A stretch of 63,874 bases of DNA, filler included, from Phoronis australis (Eukaryota; Animalia; Phoronida), in NCBI GenBank assembly GCA_002633005.1. It is 8 parts of 8 records of this genome, joined end to end, with 100 filler letters (N's around TTAATTAATTAA, not from the genome) between each part and the next. Parts side by side here need not be neighbours in the genome. Positions count along the whole stretch, not along the records: positions 1 to 24,470 come from NMRA01001156.1; positions 24,571 to 32,613 come from NMRA01001944.1; positions 32,714 to 36,000 come from NMRA01003108.1; 5 more parts are not named here. One strand, given 5' to 3'. The notes under the pieces were generated by a model, which saw nothing but the letters and a program-made list of their open reading frames with translations, did no database searches and was not told the origin of the DNA. Each line of letters begins with the position of its first letter. The first letter of the stretch is position 1. Below are positions 2,540 through 35,734 of the stretch, in pieces. Both the position numbers and the translations under genes were made by a program.

Positions 2540-2638
2540 CTAAACCAGACGACTCCATTCTTGAGGCGTAGTTGACAGTATCACCAAACAAACAATATCG
2601 CGGCATCTTCACACCAACAACCCCAGCTGCTACTGGAC
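2540..2638 (-). CDS. Guanylyl cyclase catalytic exon
   Basis: [36 protein letters not shown] acceptor and GTAAAT donor. Confidence 0.95.
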
Positions 2639-5600
2639 CTGAAAGCATGTGAAAACTTCTAAACATTTCAAATTTCGTGTGTACAAGACTTGGCATCAAT
2701 ATCAAGTAACTGATTAAAATCAACGATGGACCCATCTATATCCTGTAGCTATGTTGGCCTTGCACAAATTTTTAATGGGCTTGGCAATGTTCGAACTCCA
2801 GGTAATAACTTTATTTGCCAGTTTCAAGAGACATTGTCTTCCTGCTTTGGCCTACAGATAAAAGGATGAAATGAATAAATATTGAGTTTCGACAACGACC
2901 TAACTCATTGGTTTTATGTAGTATTAAGCAACGGAGATGGAATTACTGTTAGATATAAAATGTACAAAAGAGACAGTATGCATGGTGCGTGCTTTTAGGG
3001 AGTGAAGTGTGGTCAAATCCAAGTTGGAGTTGGAACTGGGCTCGAAAATTCTGTGCATCAAGAAATTCTCTCGAAGCCTTTAATTTAGCTATTGCGCTTC
3101 ACACTTACAGCTGAACCGGAACAAACCTGTATGCATGCCGATTCTAAGTTGCAGCTGGCGGCCTGGGCGATGTCTAATCTCGAATGTAGTGACTGCGCTT
3201 AGGAACTCCAGGCAAAGAATGGCGACTTCCCCAGCGTGTTTTTTACCGTTACGGGTAGGCAGGCCACTTACGCACATATATGCATCTCCGATTGTCTCCA
3301 CCTATAAGCCAAGGCAAAATCTATTTCTATATTCAGTGTAAGTCGATGTCTCAAATAAATATTAAACGATTTCAGATGTTCAAAATTCCCGTGCCTTTGT
3401 GTTGTGTGAATCTTAAATAACCTCGGCCTTTCCTGTGCAGACTTTTGGGCCTGAAAAAAAAGCTTCATGTCTGTCGTGAAAGTCTCAATAATTGTTTAAG
3501 CACTTGGTATTTTGCAGACTGGGAAGGATAATATGTGTTTACTTTTGGTTAGGAGTCAGTCGGTGCGTCGGTCCACCATAGGTTTATTTAAAAATTACAA
3601 TTAGTTTTTTTGTGAAAGAGGGGCTCTAACAAAACGGCCGTTCAAAGCAATCGATAAACGTCGTTTAGTTAAAACGTAGAATTAATTAGAATCTTTTAAT
3701 GTTGAAACTGTATAGCAATTCCGGCAACAGACGGGCTCTTTTTCTGCAAAACTAACCGTTACTAAATACGAAAGGGCAGTGTCCGCAGACGCAAAGGGAC
3801 CATCTAATCATATTCACGGACTGTCTTTTTCCGGTACAACGTTCTTTCGTTTGGCTTAATTTTCTTTATACTCAAATCAAAGTTATAATTCGTTTTATGC
3901 ATAGCATACAAAAAATTAAGTTTAATCTGAAATTTTGCAGTATTATTCATCAGACTTCATAGGCGCATGAACTTTAAAACTTCATATTTTGTGCAAGACA
4001 TGCACGGATAACGCATTCTGATAATTCATATTCGACTACAAGCAATAAATATATATGCCTACCTTATAGACGTCCAGATTTTCGATTATGCGGTCAAAAC
4101 ATGTGTAGAGATCATTTAAAAACTCCACAATCTGAAAAAAGTAACTCAAAGTCTCAAAGAAGCAGTGCAAATTCTCGTCATTTGTTGTTACCAAATTTAA
4201 AGGGTTTTGGCAATAGATTGTGTCTCTTAATTAATGATGGATCATACCTGCACAGGGGAGCTTTCAGAAGAGAGAGCAGTGAAACCAACGATGTCGCTGA
4301 ACATAACAGTCACGTGATTGTAAGATTCCGGTTTCACGACACGACCTTGACGCAGCTCCAGGGCAACCTGTCTGAAAACACGATGGCATCTACTAACTAC
4401 AGCAAAATCATTCTGAAAACGAGAATAAATTATCTTTTTATTTATTTACTTCCGTTTGGCCCTAATAAGTGAAATCTGTCATAGTGTTATAGATAATTTT
4501 GTAAATGTAAATCTAGGCATTTTAGTACAAGCTCAAAGAATGAAATAATGACATCAGTCTCAGAGTTTCCAAAGAAAGAACAGGAATGGTAACCTATCCT
4601 TTGATTCCACTCTAAGCGAAGAACATAGAATATCGTTAGGCTCAAGACAACAAAAAATTGTAAAAAGGGAAACACAGCGTCATTAAATTGTGGCAGTCGG
4701 TTTGTCGGTTTATCACCAGCAATTCAAAAATTAACTAAGTTTATTTTCTAGTGTGGTTATCGCCTCGAGACATCCCCATTCACACAACTGGCGAATGTCA
4801 AATATTATGCAAGGAAAGATTAAGAAGCAAGTTGGATATTTGTCCCACTTCTCTTGACACCTGTTACTGCGTAGCAGAAATCTGGCTTTCCACATGCAGG
4901 CTATAGAACTTACGCGAGGGTAGCCAAGATGATGAGAGGGTACGCAAGAAGATGCGATTTTATCCACTTTTCTGCAAACATTGCAAACCAGGAAATGGTT
5001 TATTTTGCTATTTTGCGACGGTCACTTAAGTCGAGTCTTAGAATAAATTTAAGTTAACGCTCCCTTATGAGTATACTGCAATGGAGCTCGTAGGTGTTAG
5101 TTTTACTTTTGAGGTAAATACCAGCATTAAATAAAGTATATGTATGATAATCTGTCACTGTGCTGTCATTTTATTTTAATTTAAAGTTGACCATTCGTGA
5201 ACCGCCGATATACCGCTCACATGTATATCTTTAAAACTTTCATTTGGAAATGCAGACGATTTTGATTAAAAAAACTCGTTATATCATACCGGATTTTTAA
5301 CGAAAATGACACGGAAGACGTGTATTGGCAGTAGTTCGATACATCCATGAACCATAATAAGGTTTCTCACTGAAGTGTTAGAATTTCTTGAAGCTGGTAT
5401 AGACCCGCCTTTCTTAAACAAAACGAGTAAGGAGCATGTTGAGATTAGTTTAAGCGTACATTTAAGTGGTGTAAATTAAAGTTAATTTTGACTTTCAGCA
5501 TATGGCAGTTTTTTTCGCCCATATTTGTTATGTTAGAAAAAACAGTTTTCTATGCCTATTATAGTGTACTATTGGTTTTGTACATTGTTAGTTTGTTTTA

Positions 5601-33306: not shown

Positions 33307-33823
33307 CTGAAAAAACAACAAATGTAACTACCACAAAGTAATCAATAATCAATAGCTACGTTTCCATGTATTTTGAAATACCACAAATATTTCAGGAAAA
33401 ATTAACTGGATTAATTCCACAATTTGGCATGTCCTAAGGATTACTGGAATACCAGCATTTTTGTTGCTCCTATAGACAAGCATTGGAAGAGGAACCAGAG
33501 AGTGCAATACTGTGCATGCTTCAACAGCTGCGGTTTTATTTTACAAATGCGATCAGAATGTTAATTGAGTAATCGAAACGTGGTAACTTATGAATTAAAT
33601 TTCCCACTATTAGCCCAAGCAAATTTTGGTAGAATTCAGAATACTGGGTAAATGGTGTCCCAATGCAATTTTTTAATTAAAATTTTAGCAGCAAAAGTAA
33701 TAGAATTACTTTCCCTAAATCTCACGAAATGACACCACTTTATATCCGTAAATGTATTAATTACACAAAAAGAAGACAAGCCAAGGTTCAGAAAACTTCC
33801 AAGGTTAAACAGGAACACAAATA

Positions 33824-35734
33824 CAGTAAAGTCGCGCAATTTTCGGACGGCCCGCCATTTTCGACCAAGAATAAATATTTCCAAATTGAGTTTTTCAAAG
33901 TCCATGAAATTTGTACAAGATCCAAAAACTGTTTTTCAATGATCCTCGAATTTCGGATAATGTCATAAATGTCGGATTTTTGGCCGCGACTTTCGGACAA
34001 AGACACTTTTAGAAACGCTAATTTGGGATAGACGCAACTCCCGTGTCACTAAAGCGTTCAACGGATGATTACTTCTCTATAAGGCTTGAATCCGAGAATC
34101 GGTGTAACGGACTTTGTGTAATTTTTACCTTCGTCTGGACGATGTCACGACCGTTACTCGATTGTCTTGCATTGAGCTTGTGGGGGGGTTATGGCGTAAA
34201 TTAGTAGTGACTGAGGGAGACTGAGCTGCGCGAAATTGGTGACGACCGTGGACGGCGCTAAACTGGTGACGACCGTGGACGGCACTAAACTGGTTACGAC
34301 CAGAAGAAACGGTCCTGTTATCTTCCACGCAGTTTATCAGACAATTATCAGTTTCATTTCATCCACAAAAAGATTTCACAAGTCAGAGTTTTCACAGTGG
34401 TTAAAAACGTAAGCGAANGGTCACCTCAGTTGCATGAAGACGCGCCAGTGTGTCACTGAGTTAACATCGGGTGTTTCAAAGGCTGTGGATGAGAAAGGTT
34501 TTAATTGTAAAAAACGGTTGGGTGAATTTGATGTTGGTAGCATTTGAAATTGCATTCGCTTTCTAGACAACGCCCTTATATATACAATATGTTAGTTAAT
34601 CGTGTCATCAGCCGCGCAGCACTGTGCTCGTCGACGCATTCCCTATCGTTTGCAGTAGGCCTAAACATGTAGAACGACAGCGCTTCTTCAACAATTCAGA
34701 TGACTACCAGGACGACAAATGGGGATCACGAGTCGATGAGAAACTACTCATTTTACTATCACGATTGTCTTTGTAATCTATTTTGGGTAATTGTTCATTC
34801 GAAGTTTTCATGTTGAAACTGAGCTTTCAGTTAGTATGGAAATATACGTGTCAGAGTTAACTTGCGTTTCGGTTTGTAACCAGCAGACAACGCATGGATA
34901 TATTTACCAAACATAAATATATGCTATGTTCCCATCATTGTTCACCACTTTCTTCACTGAATTCGTTCCCACATCCATTACTGTTACGTTTAATGCAAAA
35001 TCCGTTAAAATTGAGAAAGCGTTTTGATGGTCGGGAACCCTCTTTGTGTGTCGAATACGTAAGTGCAGCTTTTTATTGGGAAACCATATTAAAAAAGCGC
35101 CTATCGAGGCGCTCTTTGTGGGTTGACAGCGCCAACTCAACATTTTTTATTGAGAAAACACATTTTTACAAAAGAGAATCAGTTGTCTGCAACGTTTCAT
35201 GTGCGTCAAACAACGCAAACCAGACCCACTCATTGGAAAGCCCACATTTATCACCAGGAAGACTTTTCACAACGCTGCCTGATATTTTAAGTGAGATAGC
35301 GCAGTTTTGAAAAGATTCCGTCACGTGCCGAGAATGGTCTTTGAGCATCGGTAATGCAAGCCAAATATTTCATATTGAGAAAGCGCATCTTTGAAAAGAA
35401 GAACCAACACTTGTCGGGAACAGTCTTTGTGCGTCGACAGCCCACATTCCTTATTGGGAAAGCCATATTTTCAAAAATTAATCACGCAGACCATTTGAGT
35501 ATCATTGACCTGCAATTATACTGCTAAACCGAGCCAGCGATGTTGATACTACGACCGCTCATCGAAATAATGTACACCCACAAAATTCGGACACTAGCGG
35601 AAACCCAAATTTGGAGGTCCGCCAAATTCGGACACCACAAAAATACAAAAATGATGTTTCGCGAGATTCGTCCAAGAATGAATTTTTTCAATTGGAATTA
35701 ATTTTCAGCGTCCGAAAATCGCGCGACTCTACCG
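33824..35734. mobile_element. About 1.9-kb non-autonomous Tc1/pogo-like TIR element
   Basis: Left TA-cagtaaagtcgcgcaattttcggacg; right cgtccgaaaatcgcgcgactctaccg; right flank is not TA. Confidence 0.65.
34129..34172 (-). CDS. Putative first coding exon (MQDNRVTVVTSSRRR)
   Basis: ATG at 34172; phase-2 AG/GTAAAA donor matches the acceptor at 33306, giving a basic n-region plus hydrophobic h-region. Confidence 0.35.

What the first reader, a model, noticed from the sequence alone, without database searches (positions are those of the whole stretch)
2540..34172. Candidate chimeric receptor: LRP-type YWTD propeller/EGF ectodomain joined to an ANF-receptor guanylyl cyclase
Seen: an upstream minus-strand exon chain encodes signal peptide - propeller - EGF - propeller - EGF - EGF and ends at an open phase-1 donor (25188) with no TM or stop. 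About 3.5 kb downstream on the same strand a receptor GC begins mid-ANF domain (21712) with no start or signal peptide. The only break between them is one unsized gap (24471-24570). Known: canonical receptor GCs (NPR-A/B, GC-C, retinal GCs, sperm peptide receptors) have an ANF-type ectodomain without propellers, whereas YWTD-EGF pairs are the protein-binding modules of LRP4/5/6, pro-EGF and nidogen. Inference: one gene encoding a cGMP receptor that could respond to large protein or matrix ligands, with a co-receptor-like module built in. The phases (1 vs 0) forbid direct splicing, so the N-terminal majority of the ANF domain must lie in the gap. I cannot say whether this architecture is already in databases.
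Basis: partly seen in the sequence, partly recalled or inferred. Interest (0 to 1): 0.85.

Follow-up and report, generated by a model that had tools for sequence, protein, structure and literature searches.

The report
Propeller-tipped receptor guanylyl cyclase candidate
In an animal genome draft, exons for LRP-type protein-binding propellers lie directly upstream of a headless cGMP-making receptor, and they likely, but not provably, form one long hybrid receptor whose middle is lost in an assembly gap.

Summary
Both halves are real. Upstream, nine minus-strand exons join without a stop into 594 aa: partial YWTD propeller, EGF, full propeller, EGF, EGF. Downstream, fourteen exons give 691 aa: last quarter of an ANF domain, TM helix, kinase-homology domain and guanylyl cyclase. 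RNA-seq covers the upstream exons. Four reads of one run splice at 25188 into an exon absent from the window, beginning Ala-Cys-Pro-Val-Asp-Thr-Tyr-Lys, which resembles a cysteine-rich Ephrin_rec_like repeat (recalled). So the chain does not stop, does not reach a TM exon next, and does not splice straight to 21712. More ectodomain lies in the gap, as do about 290 missing ANF positions. No database protein with this architecture was seen: 0 of 120 listed long GC hits and 0 of 120 listed propeller hits, with 1,100-1,700 aa GCs poorly surveyed. Odds: one hybrid receptor 0.55, two neighbouring genes 0.37, mis-join 0.08. If true, it is a new ectodomain variant of receptor guanylyl cyclases.

The parts
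33251..34172 (-). Exons 34172-34129 and 33306-33251: ATG and signal-peptide-like hydrophobic stretch (link to the propellers crosses a linker)
   Evidence: splice sites and open frame; hydropathy; not covered by RNA lays
32714..32777 (-). Open exon running into the linker
32614..32713 (.). Unsized linker; likely hides the start of propeller 1 (about 70-90 aa, inferred by comparison with propeller 2)
   Evidence: no RNA depth at 32372-32613
29941..32234 (-). YWTD propeller 1, partial (exons 32234-32054, 31069-30832, 30115-29941)
   Evidence: Pfam Ldl_recept_b; best PDB hits LRP2, LRP4, LRP6; RNA depth
28957..29085 (-). EGF 1; followed by a GC-AG intron
   Evidence: Pfam EGF E 2.6e-4
26244..28545 (-). 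YWTD propeller 2, complete (exons 28545-28374, 28084-27845, 26839-26661, 26450-26244)
   Evidence: RNA depth
25188..25451 (-). EGF 2 and EGF 3; phase-1 donor spliced to an exon not in the window
   Evidence: Pfam EGF_3 and FXa_inhibition; reads and loose end; motif absent from window
24471..24570 (.). Unsized linker; must hide the Cys-rich exon and about 290 ANF positions; bordered on the high side by a high-copy repeat
20734..21712 (-). C-terminal quarter of the ANF domain and juxtamembrane Cys motif (exons 21712-21468, 20870-20734)
   Evidence: Pfam ANF_receptor; own profile positions 291-368 and 378-410 of 413
20289..20364 (-). Single transmembrane helix
   Evidence: sequence; same position as the TM of relatives
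6324..18227 (-). Juxtamembrane and kinase-homology exons (18227-18092, 12430-12224, 10633-10457, 10252-10090, 8832-8683 and 8354-8180, the last two repeated at 6940-6791 and 6498-6324)
   Evidence: Pfam PK_Tyr_Ser-Thr
2540..5874 (-). Dimerisation helix and guanylyl cyclase domain (exons 5874-5734, 4371-4248, 4131-4063, 3301-3127, 2638-2540); final exon not in the window
   Evidence: Pfam HNOBA (below cut-off) and Guanylate_cyc

Best explanation
The two open exon chains likely belong to one gene for a single-pass receptor guanylyl cyclase of roughly 1,800-2,000 residues, whose ectodomain would run propeller-EGF-propeller-EGF-EGF, a cysteine-rich repeat, then an ANF domain. Shown: both chains, their splice phases, transcription of the upstream exons, the spliced continuation into a Cys-Pro-x-x-Thr-Tyr exon, and the TM, pseudokinase and cyclase motifs. 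Inferred: the join across the gap. Inferred from LRP4/5/6 and nidogen (recalled): the propellers would bind a folded protein or matrix ligand. Inferred from NPR-type receptors: the Cys-rich stalk would pass that binding to an ANF dimer, turn the TM helices, lift the kinase-homology brake and let the cyclase dimer make cGMP. The ANF cleft may still bind a small peptide, which would make it a two-input receptor (untested).
For: The truncations are complementary on one strand at one gap: the upstream chain lacks any anchor or stop, the downstream chain lacks start, signal peptide and about 290 of 413 ectodomain profile positions, and none of these is elsewhere in the window. The exon after 25188 continues the frame with Cys-containing sequence in 4 reads. 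One gene needs the least hidden DNA. With introns of median about 700 bases here I estimate 6-10 kb, against about 12-28 kb for two gene ends plus a spacer; the upstream spacer to TPX2 is 12.7 kb, and contigs of only 2.3-3.8 kb were placed nearby. rGC ectodomains do take extra modules: Clytia, Salpingoeca and an unnamed opisthokont protein have about 500-660 residues before the ANF match and EGF repeats after it; a Monosiga GC has three periplasmic-binding domains and a Cys-Pro-x-Gly-Thr-Tyr segment; NIT-domain GCs are described in PMC7400543 (passages). The three nearest rGCs (Ruditapes, Trichoplax, Antedon) are models that start inside the ANF domain, so they do not contradict a longer N-terminus.
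Against: No read, contig or homolog joins the halves. 0 of 120 listed GC-domain hits of 1,708-4,875 aa (of 316) carry PF00058, and none of 278 fetched proteins has a YWTD array. 0 of 120 listed propeller hits (of 353, mostly bacterial) carry ANF, kinase or cyclase families. 0 of 20 scanned ANF-exon hits (of 150 listed) and 0 of 40 loci show propellers. In the relatives that have EGF repeats, these lie between ANF and TM, not before ANF. An EGF followed by Cys-Pro-x-x-Thr-Tyr recalls the cysteine-rich region of Eph-type receptors (recalled), so the upstream chain may have its own TM. The linker is unsized, so there is no ceiling on what it hides. The splice evidence is 4 reads of one run, 30 letters shown.
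Confidence: 0.55

Rival explanations
1. Two neighbouring genes on the same strand. One is a YWTD-EGF-Cys-rich protein (secreted, or a receptor with its own TM and perhaps a kinase). The other is an ordinary ANF-type receptor guanylyl cyclase. The end of the first, the spacer and the first exons of the second are all lost in a large gap.
For: Canonical rGCs consist of one extracellular domain, TM, KHD, coiled coil and cyclase (PMC1435932 passages; PMC6787079 passages). No fused homolog was seen. The gap certainly hides several exons and is unsized. The other linker in the upstream chain also hides coding sequence.
Against: It needs a much larger unplaced stretch (my estimate 12-28 kb) where small contigs were otherwise placed. 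It also needs a propeller gene to sit by chance just upstream, on the same strand, cut by the same gap. The next exon is neither terminal nor TM in its first ten codons.
Confidence: 0.37
2. The contigs on the two sides of 24471-24570 are mis-joined, and the two halves come from unrelated places in the genome.
For: The contig edge at about 24576-24840 is a very high-copy repeat (summed contig depth 28,557 against about 40-60 in unique bins). The window has seven such linkers and a probable haplotype duplication at 6.2-9.6 kb.
Against: Strand and domain order match what a type I receptor needs (ectodomain before TM before cyclase); a random join would give the same strand only half the time and an ectodomain gene rarely. 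No call tested the join directly.
Confidence: 0.08

Closest known systems
ANF-type receptor guanylyl cyclases (NPR-A/B type; nearest fetched: Ruditapes XP_060600452.1 47% over 703 aa, Trichoplax XP_002116283.1 46%, Antedon XP_071941268.1 43%)
   Same: ANF tail, juxtamembrane Cys motif, one TM, kinase-homology domain without the catalytic Asp, dimerisation helix, class III cyclase. It shares an Asn-Tyr-Ala-Ser-Arg-Met-Glu variant with the Ruditapes and Antedon proteins only, among the proteins fetched.
   Different: It would carry about 750 or more extra N-terminal residues of propellers, EGF and a Cys-rich repeat. Tree support for its placement is weak (83 SH-aLRT with Ruditapes, quick tree).
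LRP4/5/6, LRP2 and nidogen YWTD propeller-EGF modules (best PDB matches)
   Same: Six-bladed YWTD-type propeller followed by EGF, in tandem; 25-27% identity to LRP-like proteins over about 520-555 aa.
   Different: Only two propellers are visible, with no LDL class A repeats in the visible part and a double EGF plus Cys-rich repeat after them; no LRP-type tail is seen.
Choanoflagellate and Clytia long receptor GCs (P0192, P0182, P0246, P0259)
   Same: An rGC core with a long multi-module ectodomain that includes EGF or Cys-rich repeats.
   Different: No YWTD array; the EGF repeats lie after the ANF domain; they form a separate clade.
NIT-domain guanylyl cyclases (PMC7400543, passages) and propeller-bearing receptor kinases ROS1/Sevenless (recalled)
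   Same: Precedents for a swapped sensor on a GC, and for YWTD propellers on a single-pass enzyme receptor.
   Different: NIT-GCs replace the ANF domain with a small-anion sensor; ROS1/Sevenless use FN3 repeats and an active tyrosine kinase.

Membership tests
ANF-type receptor guanylyl cyclase | Extracellular ANF_receptor domain | tested here: inconclusive
   Only the last quarter is present (Pfam 276-351 of 353); the rest is in no frame of the window.
ANF-type receptor guanylyl cyclase | Single TM helix after the ectodomain | tested here: met
   Hydrophobic exon 20364-20289 followed by basic residues, at the position of the relatives' TM.
ANF-type receptor guanylyl cyclase | Kinase-homology domain lacking the catalytic Asp | tested here: met
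   PK_Tyr_Ser-Thr on three exons; His-Gly-Lys-Leu-Arg-Ser-Ser-Asn in place of the His-Arg-Asp loop (consensus recalled).
ANF-type receptor guanylyl cyclase | Dimerisation helix and class III cyclase with metal-binding and GTP-selecting residues | tested here: met
   HNOBA (below cut-off) and Guanylate_cyc on three exons; both Asp, the Glu and Cys that select GTP, and the Asn/Arg pair are present (residue roles recalled); last ~50 aa outside the window.
ANF-type receptor guanylyl cyclase | Ligand-stimulated cGMP synthesis | not testable with these tools
   Needs the full cDNA and an assay.
LDL receptor / LRP family | YWTD propeller-EGF pairs | tested here: met
LDL receptor / LRP family | LDL class A ligand-binding repeats | tested here: inconclusive
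   None in the visible exons; two linkers hide sequence. Not filed as an LRP.
LDL receptor / LRP family | Own TM and short tail with NPxY or PPPSP motifs | tested here: inconclusive
   The next exon is not TM in its first ten codons. Two hydrophobic frames in 21713-25187 have no RNA test; later exons are hidden.
Ephrin_rec_like (PF07699) repeat in the hidden exon | Cys-x-x-Cys-Pro-x-Gly-Thr-Tyr core with downstream Cys pairs | not testable with these tools
   Only ten codons are known; the match to the consensus is recalled, and no profile was run on it.
Single hybrid gene (propeller-ANF-GC) | One transcript carrying both halves | tested here: inconclusive

The most novel reading that the evidence does not exclude
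A receptor guanylyl cyclase with a built-in LRP-type co-receptor: two YWTD propellers, three EGFs and an Eph-like cysteine-rich stalk stacked on an ANF domain, turning binding of a large secreted or matrix protein (Wnt-, agrin- or laminin-like) directly into cGMP. The architecture may be hidden in other invertebrates because their nearest gene models are truncated at the N-terminus.
Probability: 0.5. Interest if true: 0.72.

Novelty: new variant of a known kind. Interest (0 to 1): 0.52.

Why it matters
Known ligands of animal receptor guanylyl cyclases are mostly small peptides, ions or gases, while YWTD propellers are docking sites for folded proteins and usually signal through a partner (LRP6 with Frizzled, LRP4 with MuSK; recalled). 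One polypeptide holding both would link protein or matrix cues directly to cGMP, and would offer a natural test of how a distal module drives the ANF-TM-cyclase rotation. It would also suggest checking whether N-truncated models of this GC group in molluscs, crinoids and placozoans are split genes. If the halves are separate genes, the finding is an ordinary GC beside an LRP-like gene.

Tried and rejected
Direct splice 25188 to 21712: rejected by phase and by reads. Read-through to a stop at about 25081 (open frame): 0 of 17 laid reads enter the intron. Missing ANF exons, the hidden Cys exon or the last cyclase exon lying elsewhere in the window: not found by tblastn with 15 proteins, own profiles or a motif scan. 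No whole genome is held. The look-up of sequencing runs: no RNA holder listed; RNA runs came by species label. A lay across the gap was not possible. In one search repeats crowded the joint and loose-end tables (45 and 718 rows not shown), so no exon-exon joint was seen there. The GC exons were never laid, so their expression is untested. The ANF exon found no relatives by word search (19 candidates). Atlas searches gave generic EGF clusters and ordinary GC clusters. Metagenome scans: none, then 40 loci with no propeller match. Earlier findings: none. Paper searches found no description of the architecture: searches gave 0 papers; some searches gave listings with no title or abstract start on such a protein. 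PMC3584944 and PMC4898815 (passages) did not bear on it. A recalled report of propeller-bearing kinases in amphioxus could not be confirmed. No structure or complex prediction was run, since single exons would not decide the join. The careful tree did not finish; only the quick tree is reported.
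Full report
The window is animal genomic DNA from a fragmented draft. It has seven 100-base linkers (44 N, 12 letters, 44 N), one 419-N gap and several single N. 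No whole genome is held. The finding covers two minus-strand exon chains on either side of the linker at 24471-24570.

Observation. I mapped 28 exons. Of these, 27 have AG acceptors (the other is the ATG exon); 26 have GT donors, one a GC donor, and one runs into N. Nine exons from 32234 to 25188 give 594 aa without a stop and end in phase 1. Fourteen exons from 21712 to 2540 give 691 aa without a stop and begin in phase 0. Pfam on 20 single exons found Ldl_recept_b on 4 of 7 propeller exons, EGF families on both EGF exons, ANF_receptor at profile positions 276-351 of 353, PK_Tyr_Ser-Thr on three exons and Guanylate_cyc on three. One propeller exon matches LRP2, LRP4 and LRP6 best in the PDB; another matches designed NHL-type propellers and then LRP4, LRP2 and LRP6. 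Propeller 2 is complete. Propeller 1 lacks its start, which must lie in a second linker (32614-32713) that also separates the signal-peptide-like exons from the rest. A profile built from 17 fetched ANF ectodomains matches only the exons at 21712 and 20870 (positions 291-368 and 378-410 of 413), so about 290 positions are missing from the window; the last ~50 cyclase residues are missing too.

RNA evidence. Three RNA-seq runs of the same species label were found. On 24571-32613, bins holding exons show depth 0.7-4.5 in run X5 (lower in the other two), with first mates on the + strand, which in most stranded libraries means minus-strand RNA. Four intron-only bins are at zero in all three runs. 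On 25070-25570, 17 reads and one contig were laid, and depth is confined to the exon and ends at 25188. Four reads of X5 carry an identical loose end (median 45 letters, 30 shown); one further loose-end row was not shown. Read in phase 1, it encodes Ala-Cys-Pro-Val-Asp-Thr-Tyr-Lys-Glu-Glu. This motif is absent from all six frames of the window. It resembles the core of the Ephrin_rec_like (GCC2/GCC3) cysteine-rich repeat; that label is recalled, not tested. So the chain continues into hidden, probably extracellular, exons. It does not read through to a stop, is not followed at once by a TM exon, and does not splice to 21712.

Homologs. The ANF exon's best hit among 1.84 billion representatives is a Trichoplax GC (47%, E 4e-16). 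Over the whole GC chain the nearest are Ruditapes (47%), Trichoplax (46%) and Antedon (43%) proteins. A quick 36-row tree of the kinase-homology and cyclase region pairs the window with Ruditapes weakly (83). All three models start inside the ANF domain, so their true N-termini are unknown. A search for GC relatives of 1,708-4,875 aa gave 316 hits; none of the 120 listed has PF00058, and none of 278 fetched proteins has a YWTD array. A propeller-profile search gave 353 hits; none of the 120 listed has ANF, kinase, cyclase or PF07699 families, but most are bacterial NHL proteins, so this test is weak. Twenty of 150 ANF-exon hits were scanned and none has propellers. Forty metagenome loci show no propeller match. 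GCs of about 1,100-1,700 aa were not surveyed systematically, so a one-propeller relative could have been missed. Extra ectodomain modules on rGCs do occur: long N-terminal extensions plus EGF repeats after ANF in Clytia and choanoflagellate proteins, and periplasmic-binding repeats with a Cys-Pro-x-Gly-Thr-Tyr segment in a Monosiga GC.

Weighing. For one gene: complementary truncation on one strand at one gap, the right order for a type I receptor, an in-frame Cys-containing next exon, and the smaller hidden length. My estimates from intron sizes and the 12.7-kb spacer to TPX2 are 6-10 kb for one gene and 12-28 kb for two, in a region where contigs of 2.3-3.8 kb were placed. Against it: no precedent found, an unsized gap that certainly hides several exons, a repeat at the contig edge, and an EGF-to-Cys-rich junction that in Eph-type receptors belongs to a protein with its own TM (recalled). 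I put one gene at 0.55, two genes at 0.37 and a mis-join at 0.08. These are judgements, not computed values.

Mechanism if joined. The intracellular part is a standard receptor GC: a pseudokinase loop without the catalytic Asp, a dimerisation helix, and a cyclase with the metal-binding Asp pair and GTP-selecting residues (roles recalled). PMC1435932 (passages) describes the KHD as a negative regulator and the dimer as the catalytic unit. The propellers would capture a protein ligand as in LRP4/5/6 or nidogen (recalled), and the EGF/Cys-rich stalk would relay this to the ANF dimer and TM helices, raising cGMP. Ligand, dimer geometry and activity are all untested.

Literature. Ten searches of an open-access library gave no paper whose listing describes a propeller-bearing GC; three returned no paper at all. 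I saw passages only of PMC12716839 (Ephrin_rec-like domains occur in glutamate-family GPCR ectodomains of non-metazoan relatives), PMC3584944, PMC7400543 (five ANPR-like and twelve NIT GCs in Trichoplax), PMC6787079 (coral rGCs with LBD-KHD-GC), PMC4898815 and PMC1435932. No supplements were read; domain tables in those of PMC7400543 and PMC6787079 could bear on novelty. Subscription papers are not covered.

Verdict. The hybrid-gene reading is slightly more likely than not but unproven. The GC half is an ANF-type receptor GC by every feature that could be tested; the upstream half works like an LRP ectodomain but is not filed as an LRP. Novelty: new variant of a known kind if joined, ordinary if not. 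Interest 0.52; 0.72 if the join is shown.

Noticed in passing
window 6227-9647: Tandem ~1.85-kb duplication (92% identity) carrying two kinase-homology exons twice, one residue apart, with a single N at 8076 at the end of a 49-bp array. Likely two haplotypes placed side by side; a true duplication with alternative exon pairs is not excluded.
   Followed up: partly
window 28546-28956: GC-AG intron after the first EGF exon; the frame stays open only with this donor among those I mapped.
   Followed up: partly
window 46897-58400, minus strand: TPX2 gene (Pfam TPX2 and TPX2_importin on four open frames); no 100-base linker falls within the exons seen.
   Followed up: partly
window 23137-23912: Element with 233-nt terminal inverted repeats, 95% complementary, 310 nt apart: looks like a MITE in the stretch before the ANF exon.
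   Followed up: no
window 24576-24840, 25580-25720, 30220-30488, 31208-31470: High-copy repeats, transcribed on both strands elsewhere in the genome; the first borders the gap.
   Followed up: no
window 6654-6800 and 8540-8692: A 53-59-bp tandem repeat starts right at an exon's donor, and its unit resembles the exon end, giving several look-alike donors.
   Followed up: no
   Followed up: partly
window 10884-11712: Long TGTA-type microsatellite (about 211 copies) in a GC intron.
   Followed up: no
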